Assembly (NCBI GenBank): GCA_963790095.1
Contig: CAWBNO010000012.1
Coordinates: 146,997-210,996 of the forward strand
DNA length: 64,000 nucleotides
Direction: 5' to 3'
DNA from: an uncultured delta proteobacterium
GTDB taxonomy: Bacteria; Desulfobacterota; Desulfobacteria; Desulfobacterales; UBA11574
In this document: one piece after another, positions 43,499-57,750 of the stretch
Layout of the letters: every line of letters starts with the position of its first letter
Numbering within the stretch: position 1 is the first letter of the stretch
Translations under genes and position numbers: made by a program
Notes under the pieces: model-generated
Database searches by the model: none
The model's input: only the letters and a program-made list of their open reading frames with translations
What the model was told of the DNA's origin: nothing

Positions 43499-43573
43499 GC
43501 GGGAATAACTCAGTGGTAGAGTGCGACCTTGCCAAGGTCGAAGTCGCGGGTTCAAATCCCGTTTCCCGCTCCA
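43499..43573 (+). tRNA. tRNA-Gly (anticodon GCC)
   Basis: Folded by hand as a cloverleaf: acceptor GCGGGAA/TTCCCGC, anticodon arm CGACC-TTGCCAA-GGTCG, T arm GCGGG-TTCAAAT-CCCGT, encoded CCA. Confidence 0.9.
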
Positions 43574-43623
43574 TTTTTTTTTGGGGGAAGGTACGGGTAA
43601 ACAGACCATTATCCGGGTGTAAG

Positions 43624-43698
43624 GGCGGCATAGCCAAGTGGTAAGGCAGCGGTCTGCAAAACCGCTATTCACCAGTTCGAATCTGGTTGCCGCCTCCA
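43624..43698 (+). tRNA. tRNA-Cys (anticodon GCA)
   Basis: Acceptor GGCGGCA/TGCCGCC, anticodon arm GCGGT-CTGCAAA-ACCGC, T arm ACCAG-TTCGAAT-CTGGT, encoded CCA. Confidence 0.9.
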
Positions 43699-48030: not shown

Positions 48031-49185
48031 ATGAAAAAAATTACATTAGGTCTACTATGCATGTTACTTTTGGTGTTTTTTTCGTGCAGCAAAAAAGAGG
48101 ATCAACAAAAGCAACCCCCCCCGGCCGATGTAACGGTTGTCGTTACACAAGCAAAAGACGTTCCCATCTACCAGGAATTTGTCGGCCAGATATTCGGTTT
48201 CAAAGATATTGCCATACGGGCCAGGGTGGAAGGTTTTCTGGAAGGTTTTCATTTTGAGGAAGGTTCGCGGGTCGAAAAAGGCGCTCTACTCTATACTTTG
48301 GAAAGCCAGCCGTTTGAGGCCGATGTTGCGGCAAAGATGAGCCGGGTCGCGGAAGCAAAGACAAGGCTGGCGAAAGCCAAAAGCGATTTGGACAGGATCG
48401 CGCCCCTTGCAAAGGTGAAGGCGGTCAGTGAGAGTGATTTGGATTCTGCCGTCGCCCAATATGAGGCTTCCATCGAATCGGTGAAAGCTGCCGAAGCGAA
48501 TCTCAGGGCCAGTAACATCCAACTCGGTTATACCAAGATTTATTCACCCATATTCGGAATTATCGGAAAGACAACAGCCAAAGTAGGGGATTTCGTCGGT
48601 CGAAGTCCCAATCCGGTAATTTTGAATACGGTTTCCCGTATCGACACGATTATAGTGGAGTTTTTTATTACGGAGACGCAATATCTTCAGGTGGCCCGGC
48701 ATTTATTATCGAAGGTCGAATCGACTGTTCAGAATGCCCGAAAAGAAACCCTGGAACTGATTCTGGCAGACGGATCTCTGTACGATCACAAAGGAAAAGT
48801 TAATTTTGTTGACCGAGACGTGGATCCCACCACCGGCGCCATACTGGTTCAAGCCTCGTTTCCCAACCCCCAGGAATTGTTACGTCCCGGACAATTTGCC
48901 AAGGTTAAGGCCCTGGTTACCGTCGTTAAAGACGGCATTCTGATTCCCCAAAGATGTGTTGTGGAACTGCAGGGGCTATACAGTGTCTATGTCGTTGGCG
49001 ATGGTGATAAGGTTGAGACAAGAAACGTAAAAGTAGGACCGAAGATCAAACAATTCTGGCTGATCACCGAAGGGTTAAAGCCGGGTGAACATGTCGTGTA
49101 CGAAGGTTTACAGAGAGTTAAGGGCGGGGCGGTCGTGAAACCCACAATAAAAGAAATCGAATCAATAGACCAGGAAAGCACGTAA
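48031..49185 (+). CDS. RND efflux membrane-fusion (periplasmic adaptor) lipoprotein
   Basis: Lipobox FFSC with the AcrA-like coiled-coil/lipoyl/beta-barrel pattern (LGYTKIYSPIFGIIGK). Confidence 0.85.
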   Translation: MKKITLGLLCMLLLVFFSCSKKEDQQKQPPPADVTVVVTQAKDVPIYQEFVGQIFGFKDIAIRARVEGFLEGFHFEEGSRVEKGALLYTLESQPFEADVAAKMSRVAEAKTRLAKAKSDLDRIAPLAKVKAVSESDLDSAVAQYEASIESVKAAEANLRASNIQLGYTKIYSPIFGIIGKTTAKVGDFVGRSPNPVILNTVSRIDTIIVEFFITETQYLQVARHLLSKVESTVQNARKETLELILADGSLYDHKGKVNFVDRDVDPTTGAILVQASFPNPQELLRPGQFAKVKALVTVVKDGILIPQRCVVELQGLYSVYVVGDGDKVETRNVKVGPKIKQFWLITEGLKPGEHVVYEGLQRVKGGAVVKPTIKEIESIDQEST

Positions 49186-49191
49186 TCAGAT

Positions 49192-52100
49192 ATGGATAAT
49201 TTTTTTGTAAGACGTCCAATTGTGGCCATGGTCATCGCCATTTTTATGGTAATCGTGGGGGTCGTATCGCTGAAAGGTCTTCCCACGGAGCAATATCCCA
49301 ATATCACACCACCGGTGGTGGAAGTTCGGGCCACCTATACCGGAGCAAATGCCGTCAGTGTGGAGCAGTCGGTGGCCACACCGCTGGAGCAGCAGATCAA
49401 TGGTGTGGACAATATGATCTATATGAAATCCATCAACGCAAATGACGGCACCATGACCGTTCAGGTGTCCTTTGAGATCGGCACCGATCCGGACATGAAC
49501 ACGGTTTTTACCCAAAACCGGGTTGCCGCTGCAACAGCGAAGCTCCCTGAGGAGGTCAAAAGATTAGGGGTGACCACAGAAAAATCCCTTCCGAATATAT
49601 TGATGCTGGTAACGCTAACATCAGAAGACGGCAGATATGACCAGAATTTCCTTGGAAACTATTCACTGATCAATATCAAAGATATTTTGGCCCGTATAAA
49701 AGGCATCGGTCGCGTGAACGTACTCGGAGCCAGTGATTATTCCATGCGCATATGGATAGAGCCCGACCGATTGGCCCACCTGGGTATCACGGTGCCCGAG
49801 ATCGTGAATGCCATCCGAGAGCAAAGTGTCATTGTTCCGGGCGGTAAATTCGGTGCTGAGCCCGCTCCTCCGGGGACGGAATTTACCTACACGGTCAGAT
49901 TGCCGGATCGTCTTCAATCTGAAAAAGAATTCAGTGAAATTGTCATCAGAACCACCGAGGGAGGGTCTCAGGTAAAGATCAAAGACATCGCACGTGTGGA
50001 ACTGGGCGTTGAGACTTACAACTGCATTTACTCGATTAAATGACAAAGCAGTGCGCCATGATCGCCCTGTATCAGGCGCCCGGTTCCAACGCCGTGAAAC
50101 TGGCCGAAGACATCAGAAAGACAATGGAACAGCTGTCTCAATCTTTTCCGGAGAGCATCCGATACGACATATCGCTGGATACCACGTTGGCCATCACGGC
50201 AGGCATCGATGAAATCATCGAGACACTCTTTATCGCCCTGGCGTTGGTTATTCTGGTGGTTTTCATCTTTATCCAGGACTGGCGGGCGGCCTTAATTCCC
50301 ACCATCGCCATCCCCGTTTCTCTGGTCGGTGCGTTTATTGTATTTCCATTGATCGGTTTCACCGTCAATGTCCTCTCGCTTCTGGGGCTGGTCCTGGCCA
50401 TCGGTATTGTTGTTGACGATGCCATTGTGGTGGTGGAGGCCGTCCAGGTTAATATTGAAAATGGTATGAATCCACAAGAGGCCACCATCCATGCCATGAA
50501 TGAAGTCACCGCGCCGGTCATTGCAACCACACTGGTTTTGGTGGCGGTGTTTATCCCGGTGGCCGTCATGGGAGGAATAACGGGAAGATTGTATCAACAG
50601 TTTGCCATTACGGTTGCCGTTTCGGTGGTTTTCTCATCTATTAATGCTTTAACCTTAAGTCCCGCCCTGTGCTCTCTGCTGCTTCGAAAGCAGAAACCGT
50701 ACGGCGGTCCTTTGGGTATGTTCTTTCGTCTTTTTAACAAAGCCTTTGACAGATCCACCAAGACATATATGGGGTTTACCCGTATTGTAACCGGCAAAAT
50801 AGTTAGGGGATTGATATTTATCCTTGTCGTGACCATTGGCATGGGTTTTATAGGGAAAAAAGTTCCCGGCGGATTTATGCCCGAAGAAGACATGGGGTAT
50901 CTTATGGTAAACATTCAATTGCCGGATGCCGCATCCCTGCAACGATCCGACACGGTTGCCAAAAAAGTCGAAAAAATTATAAAAAAATACGATGAAGTGG
51001 AATACATTACCACAGTCACCGGATACAGTCTGCTCTCAGGGAGCATGTCATCCAATGCCGGTTTTATTTTTGTTTCCCTTAAGGATTGGGGTGAACGGGA
51101 GAAAACCGCAAAGGACATCGTTAGACTATTAAATGTAAATTTTCATTTGGCCATTAATGAAGCGCAGGTGTTTGCCTTTGGCCCACCGGCAATCCCCGGA
51201 TTGGGGAGTGGTTCCGGATTTACGATGATGATTCAGGACAAAGGGGGAAATACACCGGATTATCTGGCCAAACACACGGTTAACTTTGTTCAGGCTGCCA
51301 TGAAACGGCCTGAAATCGGTGGTATATTTACAACGTTTCGAGCAACCGTTCCCCAGCGATACATGGAAATCGACAGGGATAAAGTCCTGAAAGCGGGGAT
51401 TTCCCTAAATGATATTTATACCACCGTCGGCGCCTTTCTGGGCGGTTCCTATGTAAATGATTTCAACAGATTCGGAAGGCTTTACAAAGCCTATATTCAG
51501 GCAGAACCCAAGTATAGGCAAAATGAAAAACAGATAAACCTTTTTTTTGTTAAAAATAAAGAGAACAAAAGCGTTCCTTTAGCGGCATTTGTCGATATCA
51601 AAGAAATCGTCGGGCCGGATTATACCAATCGATTTAATTTGTACAGAGCCATAGAGCTCAGTGGGGGGCCGGCGCCGGATATACTTCGGTCCAGGCCCTT
51701 GATGCCCTTGAAGAATTGGCTGCAGAAGTTCTTCCGGGGGATATGGGCTTTGCGTGGAGCAATATGTCGTACCAGGAAAAGAAGGCTTCCGGAACGGGTG
51801 CCATTGTTTTCGCGTTTTCATTGTTGTTCGTATTTCTTATTCTCGCCGCCCAATATGAAAGCTGGTCCTTGCCCTTTAGTATCCTGCTGGGGACACCCTT
51901 TGCAATCTTTGGTGCATTCATCGCATTGTTTGTTTCCCGACAGTTCAGCCAAAGCTATGAACTCAATGTTTTTGCCCAGATCGCACTGGTGATGCTCATC
52001 GCCATGGCGGCCAAAAATGCCATTCTGATCGTCGAGTTTGCCAAGCTGGAATTTGACAAAGGCCTTTCTTTGTTCGATGCGGCCATCAAAGCTGCACAGC

Positions 52101-52330
52101 TGCGATTCAGACCCATATTGATGACGGCGTTTTCTTTTATACTCGGTGTTCTACCGCTGGTGGTCGCTTCCGGTGCCGGGTCCGAAGCGAGAGTGGTTAT
52201 GGGCATGGCATTGCTGGGCGGAATGTCTATTGCGACGCTGTTAGGTGTTTTCTTTTATCCCATGCTGTTTGTTTTCATCGGCAAAATCGCCAAATATGAA
52301 GCAGAAACGAGATCTTCAATTGCAACCTGA
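49192..52330 (+). pseudogene. RND (HAE1/AcrB-type) inner-membrane permease, interrupted by three frame changes
   Basis: The protein is spread over ORFs 49192..50043, 49994..50212 (short middle piece AFTRLNDKAV), 50040..51992 and 51716..52330. Breaks lie near 50021, near 50054, and in the G6 run at 51663-51668. The parts join into a colinear AcrB-like sequence. Confidence 0.8.
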
Positions 52331-52357
52331 TACCAAAGAATCCTGATGGTTATTGAA

Positions 52358-53767
52358 ATGAAAAAATTGGCTAAATTCCTTGCGGTGATGATCGTTGTAT
52401 CCCTTACAGGTTGTGCCATGGGGCCTGATTTTAAAAAACCTGTTGTGGAAACGCCGCAAAATTTTAGATTTACCGATTCAGAATCCAAAGAAACGGTTAA
52501 CTTGAAATGGTGGGAATTGTTTGACGATCCCGTTCTATATTCATTGGTTGTCGCGACATTGACGAACAATAAAGACGCATTGATTGCTGCCAGCCGTATC
52601 GAAGAGGCCCGTGCGTCCCTTGGATTCACCCAGGCGGATCAATACCCCCGACTGGATTTAGAAGCCGGCGCAAAGACAGGGAATTTTACGGGGGTATCCC
52701 GGTCGTCAACAACAGACAAATCTGCCTATATCGCACCGGTATTGAGCTGGGAAATCGATTTCTGGGGCAAATACCGCAGATCCACCGAAGCCGCAAGATC
52801 GGAATTGATGGCGTCTGAGTATTCCCTGAGGACCGTTCAAATCAGTTTGATTTCCGAAGTCGTCAGTACATATTTCCTGTTGTTGGATTATCATCAAAGA
52901 TTGATAATCTCCGAACAGACCCTTGATTCACGGCTGGACAGTCTGGATATTATTCAAAAGCGTTTTGACAAAGGCATCATTCCCGAAATTGATTTGAACC
53001 AGGCGCAAATTCAAAAAGAAATTGCCGCAGCCGCCATACCGGTCTATGAACGAAGCATCGCCCAAACTGAAAATGCCATCAGTATTTTAATCGGACGATT
53101 TCCAGCGAAGATTGAAAAAGGCATCGATCTCCACAGTCAAACCATACCGCCGGAGATACCGGTTGGACTGACCTCCAGTCTGCTGGAGCGCAGGCCCGAT
53201 ATTGCTGAAGCCATGTACTTGCTGGAGGCGCAAACCGCAAAGATCGGTGTTGCCCAAGCACTGAGGTTTCCATCTATCAGCCTGACAGGTCTTTTCGGGG
53301 CGGTCAGCAGTGAATTATCTTCCATCTCCACGGATGGTAGCATCTGGTCGGTGGGGGGGAGCCTATTGGGTCCTATTTTTGACTTTAATAAGAGCCTCCA
53401 GCGGGTTGAAATTGAGAAAGAAAGGACCCGGCAGGCATTGTATCAATACGAAAACAGGGTGCTGTTTGCTTTTCGAGAAGTCTCGGACGCCTTGAATGAA
53501 ATTCAAACCTACAAAAAGCAGATCTCTGCGGTGAAGCGAAAATTCAAGGCAGCGAAAAATGCGTCGTTCCTGTCAAAAATGAGATATGACAAAGGCGTAA
53601 CCAGCTATCTCGAAGTGCTGGACACCGAGCGAACCTTGTTCGATGTCGGACTGGAGCTTTCCCAGTTGAAACAACAATTCTTAAATGCCTATGTGAAACT
53701 ATACAAAGCCCTTGGGGGGGGATGGCTGACAAAGGCGGAAATGGAAGGGGAAGCCAAAAAGAAATAA
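52358..53767 (+). CDS. RND efflux outer-membrane factor lipoprotein (NodT family)
   Basis: Lipobox SLTGCAMGPDF and two OEP repeats. Confidence 0.85.
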   Translation: MKKLAKFLAVMIVVSLTGCAMGPDFKKPVVETPQNFRFTDSESKETVNLKWWELFDDPVLYSLVVATLTNNKDALIAASRIEEARASLGFTQADQYPRLDLEAGAKTGNFTGVSRSSTTDKSAYIAPVLSWEIDFWGKYRRSTEAARSELMASEYSLRTVQISLISEVVSTYFLLLDYHQRLIISEQTLDSRLDSLDIIQKRFDKGIIPEIDLNQAQIQKEIAAAAIPVYERSIAQTENAISILIGRFPAKIEKGIDLHSQTIPPEIPVGLTSSLLERRPDIAEAMYLLEAQTAKIGVAQALRFPSISLTGLFGAVSSELSSISTDGSIWSVGGSLLGPIFDFNKSLQRVEIEKERTRQALYQYENRVLFAFREVSDALNEIQTYKKQISAVKRKFKAAKNASFLSKMRYDKGVTSYLEVLDTERTLFDVGLELSQLKQQFLNAYVKLYKALGGGWLTKAEMEGEAKKK

Positions 53768-54695: not shown

Positions 54696-54750
54696 TGATC
54701 GAAAGCCCTTAACCCCCCTGTCCCCTGTCCGTTGGTTTGAGGACGATCTC

Positions 54751-54795
54751 AACGCTCCTAACGATCAAAACGATCGTAACGCTTCCAAGGATTTA
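54751..54795. repeat. nonamer tandem tract (AACGNTCNN x5)
   Basis: aacgctcct aacgatcaa aacgatcgt aacgcttcc aaggattta. Confidence 0.6.
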
Positions 54796-54891
54796 ACCAT
54801 TTAGCCGTCCTGGATCTTTATCGGGTATTGAAAGTATTTCAATCGTGCTTAACTTTTGGAGAAAATAGCCTGTTTCTCCGGTTCTGCCGAA

Positions 54892-54968
54892 CCAGTGACC
54901 AATGACAAATGACCAATGACCGGTAACCAGTAACCAGTGACCAGTGTCCAATGACAAATGACCCATGA
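54892..54968. repeat. heptamer tandem array, 11 units, consensus CCARTGA
   Basis: ccagtga ccaatga caaatga ccaatga ccggtaa ccagtaa ccagtga ccagtgt ccaatga caaatga cccatga. The last unit contains the ATG of ORF 54965. Confidence 0.85.
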
Positions 54969-56061
54969 AACGCAGAGCTTTTATACATAAAATGTTTCTT
55001 ACTTTACAAGGGATGCTGTTGATGCATTTTGCTGACCCTCGGGTATTGTTGGGGGCTTTTGGGGAAATGGACGGTGAAACACTCCATTATCGCCCCTTGA
55101 ACGGCCGAAGCCTCAGGGACATGGCCCTGGGAAAGGAACATCACGGCTCTGGCGCCTTTAACAATCCCATCGGCGCTTCCCGAAGGGGAAGATTTTTTCA
55201 GCTTCTGAAATGGAAGCTCAGCCAAAACAGTTTTGGCCCTTTTCTCAAAGATCAGCCCACCCAACCGATCGCCATCGACTGGGAACCGATCCGGGTGCAT
55301 CAAGGGGTATCCATCACGTTTCTGAAACATGCCAGCGTCTTGATCAAGGACGTGGACAGATATCTCCTCGTGGATCCCGTGTTTTCGGATATATTCGGGT
55401 TTGTCGAGGATTTCTCACCGTTCACATTTAGCCCCCGCCAGATTCCGGAACCGGATCACGTTCTCATCACCCACGGGCATTATGATCACCTGGACAAGCC
55501 TTCGTTGGCGACTTTGGGAAAGATACCCATGTGATCAGCCCCTTAGGGTATGACAGCGTGTTCAGGGATTTGGGCATGATGAATCGGACCCGGCTGGACT
55601 GGTACGATATGTTTCGCGACGGCGATCGTTCCGTAACATTTTTGCCCAGCAATCACTGGACCATGCGAAATCCGGTGCGGGGTCCCAACCGGTCTCTCTG
55701 GGGCGGATACATCATCGAAACTTCCGTCGGCCGCACCATTTACGTCACCGGAGATTCGGGATACTTTGACGGATTCACAGAGATCGGTGGGGATTTCGAC
55801 ATCGATCTTGCCATTATCAATCTTGGCGCCTATGAGCCCCGGTGGTTCATGGCCCCCAGCCATATGAACCCCCGGGAAACCGTTCAGGCGTTTAAAGAAC
55901 TCAATGCCCGAAAATTGATGATCGTTCACTGGGGGACCTTTCGTCTGGGGGACGAGCCGGTGCATTTCCCGCCTGTGGACATTAAAAAAGAATTAAAGAA
56001 AGAAGGCCTCCTCCATCGCCTTGTGGACATCCGGCATGGCGAAACTATTTTTGTGAACTGA
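54965..56061 (+). pseudogene. MBL-fold metallo-hydrolase (NAPE-PLD/UlaG-like), single frame break
   Basis: HVLITHGHYDHLD motif in ORF 54965..55534. The continuation GKDTHVISPLGYD... is in the -1 frame (ORF 55531..56061). The break is at TTGGGAAAGAT, about 55514-55521. Confidence 0.7.
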
Positions 56062-56110
56062 GGCATATACGGCAATACGCCAATCTAAAAAAATCATACA
56101 AGGGAACATC

Positions 56111-56738
56111 ATGTCCGAACTCAAAATACTTGAAATATTTTCTGACTATATCTGACCCTGGTGCTATTTCATTACCGGGGGTATTGAAAGACTACAAAAA
56201 GAATTTAAAATCGGCATTCGATGGACGGCATTCCCCCTCCATCCGGAAACCCCGGAGGATGGGACAGACACTGGCAACGCTGTTTGCGGGTCGTAATATA
56301 GACATCGATCAAATGATGATCCATCTAAAACAGGTTGCACACGGATTGGGGTTGCCTTTCGGCCAACGGACCATGACCTACAACAGTCGTCTGGCACAGG
56401 AGTTGGGTAAATGGGCGGAATCTGAAGGTCAAGGTCATGAATTCCACAACGCCGTGTTTCGAGCGTATTTCGCAAATGGTCTAAACATCGGGAAGCCCCA
56501 CGTCCTCGTGAAGGTGGCTGAATCCGTCAACCTGAATGGAAAAGATGCCATGAACACTATTCAATCCAGGACCTGTAGAGAATCCGTTGATCTGGACTGG
56601 AGGCGATCTTACGAAAAAAGCGTGACGGCAGTTCCGACCTTTGTATTCAACGGTCAAGTTTTGGTGGGTGCCCAAAAATACGAAGCATTGGAAAAGACCC
56701 TGCTGTCGAATAACGTGGAAAGACGAAACCCAAAATAG
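56111..56738 (+). CDS. DsbA/FrnE-like thiol:disulfide oxidoreductase. In-frame TGA (56153-56155) at the first position of the CxxC motif suggests a selenoprotein. The frame is also broken near 56264.
   Basis: From ATG 56111: MSELKILEIFSDYI-TGA-PWCYFITGGIERLQKEFKIGIRWTAFPLHPETPEDG. Skipping one base gives QTLATLFAGRNIDIDQ...VTAVPTFVFNGQVLVGAQ (ORF 56130..56738 frame). The family fold is complete only if TGA is decoded and the frame is corrected. Confidence 0.6.
56156..56180 (+). promoter_or_regulatory. candidate bacterial SECIS hairpin
   Basis: It starts right after the TGA. CCCUGGU (56156-56162) pairs with ACCGGGG (56174-56180): 7 bp including one G-U. The 11-nt apical loop starts with G. 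Confidence 0.4.
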
Positions 56739-56953: not shown

Positions 56954-57196
56954 GTGGCGAGATCTAAAATGGGGCCCGGATTATTTTCTATGGAGAACAT
57001 GATTATGGGATCGAGAGAAATCAACGAAATCGTTGTTACAGACATCAGGATGTCGTTTTCGTCAATGGTTGTTTTTATGGTGAAATGGGCCATTGCCACG
57101 ATTCCGGCGCTGATCATCTTAACGGTGGTCGGATCGTTACTGTTGGGGATTTTAAGGATAATTTTCGGCGGGTTCCACCCGGGGATGCGGTTCTAA
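56954..57196 (+). CDS. hypothetical small membrane protein
   Basis: 80-aa ORF with two hydrophobic segments. The true start is probably an internal Met. No family recognised. Confidence 0.3.
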   Translation: MARSKMGPGLFSMENMIMGSREINEIVVTDIRMSFSSMVVFMVKWAIATIPALIILTVVGSLLLGILRIIFGGFHPGMRF

Positions 57197-57375: not shown

Positions 57376-57750
57376 TCAATGGAGTGACAGCAAATAAGAC
57401 CTGAGATTTGCCTTCTTGCCCTCCAGGCCGATTTTCCTTTGGATATTTTTTTTGTGGGTGTCGACGGTTCTTGGGGATATATTCATGATTTTTGCTATTT
57501 TTTTGCTGGTATTCCCGTGCTTTGTCATGTTCGCAATCTGAATTTCTGTGGGGGTCAGGTTTAAATATACCAGTGACAATTTTCGGGTAAACGGAGAGAT
57601 GATTTCGTAGAGCGCAAGACTCATCTCCTGTCTTGCTGAATCTTCAATATTCGAAGTGGTCAGGCTGTAGGTGCTTTGAAGCAATATGGCCGAGAATATT
57701 ACGACGATTATTCCAATAAAGAGGATCAATTTTGATTTTATACTCTTCAT
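57376..57750 (-). CDS. membrane-anchored LuxR/GerE-type HTH regulator (no receiver or ligand domain)
   Basis: N-terminal TM (LILFIGIIVVIFSAILL). C-terminal LTPTEIQIANMTKHGNTSKKIAKIMNISPRTVDTHKKNIQRKIGL. Confidence 0.7.
   Translation of the reverse strand: MKSIKSKLILFIGIIVVIFSAILLQSTYSLTTSNIEDSARQEMSLALYEIISPFTRKLSLVYLNLTPTEIQIANMTKHGNTSKKIAKIMNISPRTVDTHKKNIQRKIGLEGKKANLRSYLLSLH

What the first reader, a model, noticed from the sequence alone, without database searches (positions are those of the whole stretch)
56111..56738. DsbA/FrnE-like oxidoreductase with TGA in place of the first redox cysteine (U-P-W-C) and a hairpin immediately downstream: likely selenoprotein, missed by the ORF track
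From ATG 56111 the frame reads MSELKILEIFSDYI-TGA-PWCYFITGGIERLQKEFKIGIRWTAFPLHPETPEDG. In Cys-type members of this thioredoxin-fold family the same position reads (F/Y)-x-C-P-(F/W)-C-Y. The stop therefore sits exactly where the nucleophilic Cys belongs. This is the established hallmark of Sec/Cys pairs in thioredoxin-fold selenoproteins. Directly after the TGA, CCCUGGU/ACCGGGG forms a 7-bp stem with an 11-nt loop beginning with G, compatible with loose bacterial SECIS models. The ORF track only reports the downstream part (56130..56738, wrong start). The gene additionally needs one base skipped near 56264 (…PEDG|a|QTLATLFAGR…) to reach the helical insert and the cis-Pro loop (VTAVPTF). As read, it is either a decaying selenoprotein gene or carries a sequencing error.
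Basis: partly seen in the sequence, partly recalled or inferred. Interest (0 to 1): 0.7.

Follow-up and report, generated by a model that had tools for sequence, protein, structure and literature searches.

The report
Frameshifted DsbA-like selenoprotein gene
This is a copy of an already described family of selenium-containing thiol-disulfide enzymes (DsbA/FrnE-like, active site Sec-Pro-Trp-Cys) that gene finders miss because its selenocysteine is written as a stop codon, and in this sequence the copy is also broken by one extra base.

Summary
ATG 56111 opens a frame that reads MSELKILEIFSDYI-TGA(56153-55)-PWCYF. One extra base at 56261-56264 shifts the frame. Removing it gives a 208-residue protein that matches the full Pfam DSBA domain.

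The selenoprotein reading is strongly supported by comparison. Of 77 scorable species-level genomes, 75 carry TGA at this codon and 2 carry Cys. All keep the upstream LEIFSDY strand in frame.

It shows no covariation and is just as present in Cys forms. An overlapping hairpin at 56167-56189 (loop CGGGG, 20 nt after UGA) is the likely SECIS:
- its six core pairs hold in 76/76 Sec forms but only 2/7 Cys forms;
- compensatory changes arose in about 7 and 4 separate groups;
- synonymous sites are frozen exactly over it.

The extra base is absent from all nine close relatives. Three more single-base frameshifts lie within 7 kb (an acrB-like gene and an MBL-fold gene). Assembly error and recent decay cannot be separated here.

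DsbA-like UxxC selenoproteins have been described since 2005. This is a new, damaged member of a known kind. Sec machinery could not be tested.

The parts
56100..56105 (+). Shine-Dalgarno-like AAGGGA, 5 nt before the ATG
   Evidence: Read directly. Conserved in close relatives as AAGGGA or AAGGAA.
56111..56263 (+). First part of the coding sequence (51 codons): strand beta1 LEIFSDY, the U-P-W-C motif, start of helix alpha1, strand beta2
   Evidence: Translation. Upstream frame conserved in 83 TGA-containing loci. Pfam DSBA profile positions 2-190 of 191 are covered only when this part is joined to the second part.
56153..56155 (+). In-frame TGA, the predicted selenocysteine codon, at the position of the nucleophilic Cys of CxxC
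   Evidence: TGA in 75 of 77 scorable genome loci, TGC or TGT in 2. Aligns with the Cys of CPWC in solved FrnE 5CNW. TGA is an ordinary stop in 18 of 44 ORFs of this window, so this is not an alternative genetic code.
56162..56164 (+). TGC, the resolving Cys of the UxxC motif
   Evidence: Invariant in all loci that matched the motif search, which required a Cys here; a few database homologues read CPWS instead.
56167..56189 (+). Conserved hairpin and likely bacterial SECIS. Arms are 56167-56175 and 56181-56189, with a U.U mismatch at 56172/56184. The loop is 56176-56180 (CGGGG; family consensus CGGGC). The core pairs are 56169-71, 56173-75 with 56181-83, 56185-87.
   Evidence: RNAalifold finds it unaided. 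The 6 core pairs are never broken in 76 distinct Sec forms; 5 pairs carry compensatory changes, which 0 of 500 shuffles reach. U-A to C-G arose in about 7 groups and A-U to G-C in about 4. Synonymous sites are frozen over codons +5 to +11 only. The core is intact in 76/76 Sec forms against 2/7 Cys forms, p = 7e-7.
56156..56180 (+).
   Evidence: dG -12 kcal/mol. No covariation. Equally formed in Cys forms. It shares bases 56173-56180 with the conserved hairpin, so the two exclude each other.
56261..56264 (+). Site of the one-base insertion (GGGA; relatives read GGG-C or GGA-C) that shifts the frame by +1
   Evidence: Alignments with nine close relatives, all lacking the base. A metagenome pattern scan that allowed either allele found only the unshifted one.
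56265..56738 (+). Second part of the coding sequence (157 codons plus TAG): helical insert, cis-Pro loop V-T-A-V-P (Pro codon 56634-56636), beta3-beta4, C-terminal helix
   Evidence: Translation. 94% identical to P0027. Aligns with FrnE through the T-x-V-P loop.

Best explanation
The locus is a gene of the known DsbA-like (FrnE / COG2761-type, Pfam PF01323) selenoprotein family.

How it would work:
- Translation starts at ATG 56111.
- UGA 56153 is read as selenocysteine, giving the redox motif Sec-Pro-Trp-Cys at the N-terminal cap of helix alpha1.
- Recoding is directed by a small hairpin inside the coding sequence at 56167-56189. Its stem starts 11 nt after the UGA and carries a G-rich pentaloop 20 nt after the UGA. 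The Sec-specific elongation factor SelB would bind this loop while the ribosome sits on the UGA.
- The product has no signal peptide, so it would be a cytoplasmic thiol-disulfide oxidoreductase. The selenolate attacks a substrate disulfide, and Cys18 resolves the selenenylsulfide.

As given, this copy cannot make that protein. One extra base at 56261-56264 shifts the frame after residue 51. That base is either an assembly or sequencing error or a very recent inactivating mutation. I lean slightly to error (about 55:43).

What is shown: family membership by sequence and fold, the Sec/Cys pair, the conserved frame across the TGA, the covarying Sec-specific hairpin, and the uniqueness of the extra base.

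What is inferred: actual Sec insertion, SelB binding, cytoplasmic location, and the enzymatic role.
For: Protein identity:
- The repaired protein matches the full Pfam DSBA profile at 2e-32, positions 2-190 of 191.
- The closest solved structure is D. radiodurans FrnE at 4e-16, with CPWC aligned on UPWC and the T-x-V-P cis-Pro loop aligned.
- An AlphaFold model of the natural Cys orthologue P0021 (pLDDT 90.6) places the Cys just before helix 13-17. Its best fold match is FrnE 5CNW, TM 0.81.

Sec/Cys pair:
- TGA occurs at this codon in 75 of 77 scorable genome loci from Desulfobacterales, Syntrophales, Desulfatiglandales, Desulfobulbaceae and Nitrospiraceae. An ATG lies about 13 codons upstream, with LEIFSDY[IV] conserved in frame. 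Two loci have TGC or TGT.
- Public gene calls show the same pattern. Among the top 120 protein clusters, 44 read 'W' there, about 46 start after it, and about 28 have Cys. The 'W' was verified to be TGA in the DNA.
- TGA is a normal stop in this window.

SECIS hairpin:
- Covariation and RNAalifold support it.
- Compensatory changes arose independently in several groups.
- The synonymous-site footprint reads TTC 81/81, ACC 72/78, GGG 64/69, CGT 61/63, ATT 61/66, GAA 57/63. The neighbouring P, C and Y codons vary freely.
- The core is intact in 76/76 Sec forms against 2/7 Cys forms.
- It fits the published bacterial SECIS rules for loop size, G then G/U at loop positions 2-3, and 16-37 nt spacing (PMC13188914).

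The family is documented as a selenoprotein family: PMC1088965, PMC1794560, PMC1976440, PMC13188914.
Against: - No selA, selB, selD or tRNA-Sec lies in the 64-kb window (gene content read). No other selenoprotein gene was recognised in it. The rest of the genome is not available.
- The conserved hairpin is weak on its own: -4.2 kcal/mol here and a mean of -4.4. It is less stable than the competing hairpin in 58 of 76 sequences. It reaches the -7.5 kcal/mol consensus threshold only with a non-conserved lower stem: -8.7 here, and met in 59 of 79 sequences.
- No Rfam SECIS family matches.
- The gene as given is frameshifted, so in this organism it may not be expressed as a functional protein.
- No experimental evidence for Sec insertion in this subfamily was found in the papers read; the family is known from bioinformatics.
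Confidence: 0.88

Rival explanations
1. The extra base at 56261-56264 is an assembly or sequencing error, and the organism carries an intact, functional selenoprotein gene.
For: - This is the only lesion. The start codon, SD motif, TGA, SECIS hairpin and the whole downstream frame are intact.
- dN/dS against relatives is 0.2-0.45.
- All nine close relatives lack the base, including L001 at 96.8% identity with no other gap in 1122 nt.
- Three further single-base frameshifts hit two nearby genes that are otherwise full length. The acrB-like gene covers Pfam profile positions 2-272, 277-828 and 841-1020. The MBL-fold gene lacks one A that both L002 and L089 have. That is the pattern consensus indel errors give.
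Against: - The four frameshifts cluster within 7.1 kb. The long housekeeping ORFs of the other ~57 kb look intact: 862, 759, 530 and 525 aa among others. Evenly spread errors would rarely do that, at roughly p = 0.005 by my own estimate.
- The sites are not long homopolymers.
Confidence: 0.55
2. The frameshift is real. The selenoprotein gene has just been inactivated as part of local decay of an accessory region, so it is a pseudogene at an early stage.
For: - Four frameshifts cluster in three accessory genes within 49.2-56.3 kb, two of them in the same gene.
- Immediately downstream, 57376-57750(-) is a 124-aa fusion remnant where relative L002 has an intact histidine kinase and response regulator. 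That is a deletion of about 2.8 kb.
- Other relatives (L003-L007) have lost most of the MBL gene. The locus is therefore demonstrably unstable.
Against: - There is no second lesion in the gene. The constrained SECIS and TGA are untouched.
- dN/dS gives no sign of relaxed constraint.
- The allele with the extra base was not found in the metagenome collection, although the scan accepted it.
Confidence: 0.43
3. The TGA is a true stop, or the first reader's hairpin is the recoding signal. Either the real protein starts downstream of the TGA, as NCBI and JGI gene calls assume, or Sec insertion depends on hairpin 56156-56180.
For: - Public annotations-190-aa N-truncated proteins.
- Hairpin 56156-56180 is the minimum-free-energy fold at -12 kcal/mol.
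Against: - A truncated product would lack strand beta1 and the whole redox motif.
- The 13 codons before the TGA, the ATG and the SD motif are conserved in frame across phyla.
- In the closest relatives no start codon exists between the TGA and residue 68.
- The hairpin shows no covariation, has wrong spacing and loop for the consensus, and is equally present in Cys forms.
Confidence: 0.03
4. Double recoding: the extra base is bypassed by programmed +1 ribosomal frameshifting, so the gene is functional as written.
For: Only that both halves are otherwise intact.
Against: - None of nine close relatives has the extra base, so no conserved frameshift site exists.
- I recognise no known +1 slippery or stall motif at GAU-GGG-A-CAG (my own knowledge).
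- Three ordinary frameshifts sit in neighbouring genes.
Confidence: 0.01

Closest known systems
DsbA-like selenoprotein family ('DsbA-like protein form 1', PF01323 / COG2761, UxxC), from Zhang, Fomenko & Gladyshev 2005 (PMC1088965). Later reported in Anaeromyxobacter, Desulfovibrio, Desulfotomaculum (PMC1794560) and the Olavius delta-1 symbiont (PMC1976440), and listed in the 2026 review PMC13188914.
   Same: - Same Pfam domain.
- Same UxxC motif with Sec in the first position.
- Cys-containing homologues exist at the same site.
- A stem-loop with G in a small apical loop lies downstream of the UGA.
- Found in anaerobic Deltaproteobacteria-type organisms.
   Different: - I could not compare sequences with the published representatives (NIP15863.1, AACY01178397). 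Whether this U-P-W-C clade is the same subfamily or a sister clade is untested.
- The copy here is frameshifted.
- The covariation-supported hairpin and its Sec-specific maintenance were worked out here. They were not taken from those papers.
FrnE of Deinococcus radiodurans (PDB 5CNW, 5CO3, 5COH, 5XWH, 5CP1), a cytoplasmic DsbA-like disulfide oxidoreductase
   Same: - It is the best sequence match among solved structures at 4e-16 over residues 6-194. SDIACPWCY aligns with SDYIUPWCY, and the T-G-V-P loop with T-A-V-P.
- It is the best fold match for the Cys orthologue model, TM 0.81.
- Neither protein has a signal peptide.
   Different: - FrnE uses Cys, not Sec.
- Sequence identity is only about 22%.
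- FrnE has a longer C-terminal tail with an extra Cys pair (my own knowledge; entry 5CP1 is a C239S mutant). The window protein ends ...NNVERRNPK without Cys.
Escherichia coli fdhF SECIS (a minimal 17-nt upper stem-loop 11 nt after the UGA, GGUC loop, bulged U17; my own knowledge of Liu et al. 1998 and Huttenhofer et al. 1996) and the bacterial SECIS consensus model (PMC13188914, Fig. 2A)
   Same: - The hairpin lies inside the coding sequence.
- The stem begins 11 nt after the UGA (56167).
- There is an unpaired U.U in the middle of the stem.
- The apical loop is small, with G then G/U at positions 2-3.
- Spacing of 20 nt from the UGA to the loop falls within 16-37.
   Different: - The loop is a pentaloop CGGG(C/G/A) rather than GGUC.
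- The stem is A-U rich and weak, at -4 kcal/mol alone.
- A competing, stronger hairpin overlaps it.
- There is no Rfam match.

Membership tests
DsbA-like selenoprotein (PF01323, UxxC) | Full DSBA-like thioredoxin domain | tested here: met
   PF01323 at E = 2e-32, 113 bits against a 25.6 cut-off, profile positions 2-190 of 191. This holds only for the repaired reading, with U replaced by C and one base removed.
DsbA-like selenoprotein (PF01323, UxxC) | In-frame TGA at the position of a redox Cys, with Cys-containing homologues at the same position (Sec/Cys pair) | tested here: met
   TGA in 75 genome loci and Cys in 2. About 28 Cys-form protein clusters. Aligned on the CPWC of FrnE.
DsbA-like selenoprotein (PF01323, UxxC) | Coding sequence conserved on both sides of the TGA in one frame | tested here: met
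   ATG plus about 13 codons including LEIFSDY[IV] are conserved upstream, and PWCYF...RWTAFPLHP downstream.
DsbA-like selenoprotein (PF01323, UxxC) | Uninterrupted reading frame | tested here: not met
   One extra base at 56261-56264 shifts the frame. It is unique to the window among ten close sequences.
Bacterial SECIS (consensus model, PMC13188914 Fig. 2A) | Apical loop of 3-9 nt on an upper stem of 4-16 bp | tested here: met
Hairpin 56167-56189 has a 5-nt loop and 3 + 3 to 5 pairs around a U.U mismatch.
Bacterial SECIS (consensus model, PMC13188914 Fig. 2A) | G in the first two loop positions, usually followed by G or U | tested here: met
Loops are CGGGC in 47 sequences, CGUGC in 10, CGGGA in 8 and CGGGG in 4 (including the window) out of 76.
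Bacterial SECIS (consensus model, PMC13188914 Fig. 2A) | 16-37 nt between the UGA and the apical loop | tested here: met
20 nt (56156-56175) lie between the UGA and the loop at 56176.
Bacterial SECIS (consensus model, PMC13188914 Fig. 2A) | Minimum free energy of -7.5 kcal/mol or lower | tested here: inconclusive
   The hairpin alone is -4.2 kcal/mol (mean -4.4). The best structure that contains it is -8.7 in the window, and reaches -7.5 or lower in 59 of 79 sequences, using a lower stem that is not conserved.
Bacterial SECIS (functional RNA element) | Structure maintained by compensatory change, and specifically in UGA-containing genes | tested here: met
   5 pairs with changes on both sides, reached by 0 of 500 shuffles. 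About 7 and 4 independent groups. The core is intact in 76/76 Sec forms against 2/7 Cys forms, p = 7e-7.
Selenocysteine-decoding trait | selA, selB, selC (tRNA-Sec) and selD in the same genome | not testable with these tools
   None lies in the 64-kb window: tRNA scan, Rfam, and ORF content read by eye. The window's genome was not among the genome loci returned (best 85%), and whole genomes cannot be searched here.
Selenocysteine-decoding trait | Selenium actually incorporated at the UGA | not testable with these tools
   This needs 75Se labelling or mass spectrometry.
FrnE / COG2761 cytoplasmic DsbA-like oxidoreductases | Thioredoxin fold with helical insert, CxxC at the N-cap of alpha1, cis-Pro loop, no signal peptide | tested here: met
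   Sequence alignment to 5CNW. Model of orthologue P0021 (beta1 2-8, Cys12, helix 13-28, helical insert 51-165, Pro172 before beta3), with FrnE as the top fold hit. The N-terminus starts directly with beta1.
FrnE / COG2761 cytoplasmic DsbA-like oxidoreductases | C-terminal tail with a second Cys pair, as in D. radiodurans FrnE (my own knowledge) | tested here: not met
   The window protein ends ...LLSNNVERRNPK with no Cys after residue 155. Some Cys-form relatives end in ...LLLAC.
Periplasmic DsbA (E. coli type) | Signal peptide; CPHC-type motif; DsbB partner | tested here: not met
   There is no hydrophobic leader, since the motif begins at residue 15. Periplasmic DsbA structures match only distantly, with TM 0.5-0.6.

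The most novel reading that the evidence does not exclude
The functional recoding signal of this widespread clade is the minimal, weak hairpin at 56167-56189: two 3-bp helices around a U.U mismatch under a CGGG(C) pentaloop, about -4 kcal/mol on its own. It competes with a stronger coding-imposed hairpin that only the translating ribosome can remove. If so, this would be a class of bacterial SECIS that energy-filtered predictors tend to miss. It would also explain why this clade is mis-called, either truncated or as 'Trp', in public gene calls.

A still more exotic reading is Sec recoding plus programmed +1 frameshifting in this allele. It is not strictly excluded, but I put it at about 1%.
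Probability: 0.5. Interest if true: 0.35.

Novelty: new member of a known kind. Interest (0 to 1): 0.3.

Why it matters
Practically, this is an annotation matter. The clade is found in Desulfobacterales, Syntrophales, Desulfatiglandales, Desulfobulbaceae and Nitrospiraceae genomes. In public gene calls it is almost always recorded either as an N-truncated 'DsbA family protein' without its active site, or with Trp in place of Sec. NCBIfam gave no hit above its cut-off for this protein.

The comparative set assembled here gives this clade a SECIS supported by covariation, and a clean Sec-versus-Cys control. That could seed a model for correct annotation.

Biologically, it adds one more thiol-disulfide oxidoreductase to the selenoproteome of sulfate-reducer-type bacteria, which is already known to be large. 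It does not change any concept.

Tried and rejected
- Rfam, whole window at gathering threshold and the locus at E up to 10: only two tRNAs and chance hits, no SECIS or tRNA-Sec family.
- Alternative genetic code (TGA = Trp), suggested by the 'W' in 44 public protein calls: rejected. TGA ends 18 of 44 ORFs in this window, and the 'W' of P0005 is a TGA in a gene that does not translate under table 11.
- Search for the allele with the extra base in metagenome contigs, using a pattern that accepted both alleles: only two hits, both without it.
- Scan of the window for other TGA-interrupted ORFs as independent evidence of Sec use: nothing convincing.
- Conserved gene neighbourhood across 82 loci as a clue to function: none. 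The commonest neighbour family occurs in 11 loci.
- Codon-usage frame plot to map all frameshifts in the window: too noisy to use.
- Programmed +1 frameshift: considered and set aside, because no relative shares the site.
Full report
**1. What is in the sequence**

An AAGGGA motif at 56100-56105 lies 5 nt upstream of ATG 56111. From that ATG the frame reads MSELKILEIFSDYI, then TGA (56153-56155), then PWCYFITGGIERLQKEFKIGIRWTAFPLHPETPEDG. After that it degenerates and stops at 56291-56293.

The +1 frame carries the rest of a DSBA domain from about 56265 to the TAG at 56736-56738. The mechanical ORF list reports only 56130..56738, with a TTG start. Its first 45 or so residues are out-of-frame junk.

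I joined the two parts by dropping one base and wrote Cys for the TGA. The result is a 208-residue protein that matches Pfam PF01323 (DSBA) end to end, at 2e-32 over profile positions 2-190 of 191. NCBIfam has no specific model for it; the only hits are weak and below cut-off.

**2. The TGA is a conserved Sec codon**

A protein search returned thousands of homologues. The best 120 clusters fall into three classes:
- 44 full-length calls read 'W' at the critical position.
- About 46 calls begin downstream of it, at 140-190 aa.
- About 28 have Cys (CPWC).

For one 'W' protein I fetched the DNA. The codon is TGA, and the gene does not translate under table 11.

A scan of one genome per species returned 80 loci. 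They come from Desulfobacterales, Desulfobulbaceae, Syntrophales, Desulfatiglandales, Nitrospiraceae, Dissulfurispiraceae and an Olavius symbiont. Of these, 75 have TGA, two have TGC or TGT, and three did not match my motif search. All 75 have an ATG about 13 codons upstream and LEIFSDY[IV] in frame before the TGA.

In this window TGA terminates 18 of 44 ordinary ORFs, so the organism uses the standard code.

The closest solved structure is FrnE of Deinococcus radiodurans at 4e-16. Its CPWC lies exactly on U-P-W-C, and its T-G-V-P cis-Pro loop on T-A-V-P. An AlphaFold model of a natural Cys orthologue (P0021, pLDDT 90.6) shows the classic DsbA architecture, with the Cys immediately before helix alpha1. 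FrnE is again the best fold match, at TM 0.81.

**3. The recoding hairpin is not the one proposed**

It is unremarkable against shuffles, with z = -1.56.

I aligned 76 distinct TGA-containing sequences without gaps (A4). On that alignment:
One pair has a change on both sides, and 477 of 500 shuffles do as well. Its outer pair forms in 5 of 76 sequences, and its third pair is broken in 21 of 76.
- RNAalifold instead predicts, unaided, a hairpin whose core is columns 26-28, 30-32 paired with 38-40, 42-44. In window coordinates that is 56169-71, 56173-75 with 56181-83, 56185-87.
- For the 9-pair version of this hairpin (56167-75 with 56181-89), five pairs carry compensatory changes in 20 cells, which 0 of 500 shuffles reach. 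The six core pairs are never broken in any of the 76 sequences.

On a neighbour-joining tree built from the rest of the protein, U-A to C-G at 56173/56183 appears in about seven separate groups. A-U to G-C at 56171/56185 appears in about four. Several of these changes couple a synonymous change on one arm with an amino-acid change on the other, for example ATT to ATC together with ATT to GTT.

Synonymous variation is almost abolished over codons +5 to +11 after the TGA: TTC 81/81, ACC 72/78, GGG 64/69, CGT 61/63, ATT 61/66, GAA 57/63.

As a control I fetched DNA for Cys forms, seven in all. The conserved hairpin's six core pairs are all present in only 2 of 7 Cys forms, against 76 of 76 Sec forms (Fisher p = 7e-7). 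The first hairpin is therefore a by-product of coding P-W-C...T-G. The second is maintained only when the codon is UGA.

**4. Comparison with the published bacterial SECIS model**

The model (PMC13188914, Fig. 2A) sets four rules:

| Rule | Hairpin 56167-56189 |
|---|---|
| Apical loop 3-9 nt | Met: 5 nt, CGGGG here and CGGGC in 47 of 76 |
| G in the first two loop positions, then G or U | Met: G at position 2, followed by G (U in 11 of the 76 loops; 5 of 76 loops differ) |
| 16-37 nt from the UGA to the loop | Met: 20 nt |
| MFE of -7.5 kcal/mol or lower | Borderline: -4.2 alone; -8.7 with a short non-conserved lower stem, met in 59 of 79 sequences |

The stem starts 11 nt after the UGA and has an unpaired U.U in the middle. 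To my knowledge this is the geometry of the E. coli fdhF minimal SECIS. A hairpin that begins right at the UGA cannot exist while the ribosome is decoding that codon, whereas one starting 11 nt downstream sits at the mRNA entrance. This last point is inference from established ribosome footprints.

Rfam has no matching family.

**5. The frameshift**

Nine close relatives were compared: six contigs at 90-97% identity, one MAG contig, and two more from a metagenome pattern scan that would have accepted either allele. All read GATGGG-CAR or GATGGA-CAA where the window reads GATGGGACAG. L001 is 96.8% identical over 1122 nt, and this is its only gap.

The gene has no other lesion. dN/dS against relatives is 0.2-0.45.

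The frameshift is not alone:
- The upstream MBL-fold gene (54965-56061) is split at about 55518 by loss of one A. Both L002 and L089 have that A, and both carry intact 365-367-aa ORFs.
- The acrB-like gene (49192-52330) is split into three ORFs covering Pfam profile positions 2-272, 277-828 and 841-1020. That means two more one-base shifts, near 50038-50041 and 51676-51682.

That makes four single-base frameshifts within 7.1 kb. The long housekeeping ORFs elsewhere in the window appear intact.

Just downstream, 57376-57750(-) is a 124-aa fusion of a kinase N-terminus with a GerE HTH. L002 has two full genes at that position.

Single-base lesions in otherwise perfect genes look like consensus errors. 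Their clustering in accessory genes next to a real deletion looks like local decay. An accessory region covered thinly in a mixed population would produce clustered errors too. I cannot decide between these, and put it at about 55% error, 43% real and 1% programmed.

**6. Sec machinery and context**

The window contains tRNA-Gly and tRNA-Cys only. I recognised no selA, selB or selD among its ORFs. Read by eye, these include topA, dprA, secDF, leuS, murJ, coaBC, hslUV, argDH, lysA and dapF. No other convincing TGA-interrupted gene is present.

The argument for Sec decoding therefore rests on the comparative evidence in sections 2 and 3.

Gene neighbourhood is not conserved across 82 loci. The promoter and terminator scans give nothing above background.

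**7. What is known**

'DsbA-like protein' (COG2761 / PF01323, UxxC) was reported as a new selenoprotein family from the Sargasso Sea in 2005, with nine sequences and a predicted SECIS with G in the apical loop (PMC1088965). It was then found in Anaeromyxobacter dehalogenans, Desulfovibrio desulfuricans and Desulfotomaculum reducens (PMC1794560), and in the Olavius delta-1 symbiont (PMC1976440). It is listed as 'DsbA-like protein form 1' in reviews from 2022 and 2026. The 2026 review notes that functions of these families remain largely uncharacterised.

This locus is thus a further, unannotated and damaged, member of a known kind. The parts that are new here, to my knowledge, are:
- identification of the covarying, Sec-specific mini-hairpin for this clade;
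- the demonstration that the obvious strong hairpin is a coding artefact;
- the extent of mis-annotation.

**8. Verdict**

- Observation: confirmed.
- Interpretation: right on the main point (a selenoprotein gene missed by ORF calling and needing one base skipped), and wrong on which hairpin matters.
- Interest: modest, 0.3.

Noticed in passing
window 49192-52330 (+): An acrB/RND-type transporter gene is split into three ORFs (283, 650 and 204 aa) covering Pfam ACR_tran profile positions 2-272, 277-828 and 841-1020. That implies two one-base frameshifts, near 50038-50041 (A run) and 51676-51682 (ccgg). It sits in an HlyD - AcrB - OEP efflux operon spanning 48031-53767.
   Followed up: partly
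window 54965-56061 (+): The MBL-fold (Lactamase_B_2) gene directly upstream is split into 189 and 176 aa by loss of a single A at about 55518 (TTGG-GAAAG against CTGGAGAAAG). Relatives L002 and L089 have intact 365- and 367-aa genes.
   Followed up: yes
window 57376-57750 (-), compared with L002 2470-5624: The 124-aa ORF joins a short membrane N-terminus to a GerE/LuxR HTH. In relative L002 the same ends belong to two full genes, a 637-aa PAS histidine kinase and a 414-aa response regulator. The window therefore carries a deletion of about 2.8 kb that fuses them.
   Followed up: partly
L003-L007 (about 2019-2400 in L003) against window 54720-55710: In another group of close relatives most of the MBL gene is missing and only a 70-aa remnant ORF precedes the selenoprotein gene. 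The selenoprotein gene is retained while its neighbours vary.
   Followed up: no
public protein clusters P0001-P0120 (homologues of window 56111-56738): There is systematic mis-annotation. 44 of the top 120 clusters, mostly from ENA and Logan assemblies with some JGI and NCBI calls, translate the TGA as Trp (WPWC). About 46, from NCBI, JGI and ENA among others, start after the TGA and lack the active site. NCBI names them 'DsbA family protein'.
   Followed up: partly
Cys-form homologues P0021, P0025, P0029-31, P0034, P0036, P0037, P0042 (loci L013, L021, L094): Many Cys forms carry an extra Cys eight residues after the first Cys (CPWCYFITGCIE), where Sec forms have Arg, Ser or Gly. Some have lost the second motif Cys (CPWS). 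Several also have a C-terminal extension ending in Cys (...LLLAC). This may be a rearranged resolving-Cys arrangement that accompanies loss of Sec.
   Followed up: no
window 56954-57196 (+): A small ORF (80 aa, hydrophobic) downstream of the selenoprotein gene is conserved at 88-95% DNA identity in L002, L003-L007, L088 and L089, where it is called as 63-65 aa. Its function is unknown.
   Followed up: no
window 43499-43698 (+): tRNA-Gly(GCC) and tRNA-Cys(GCA) lie in tandem. These are the only RNA genes detected in the window.
   Followed up: yes
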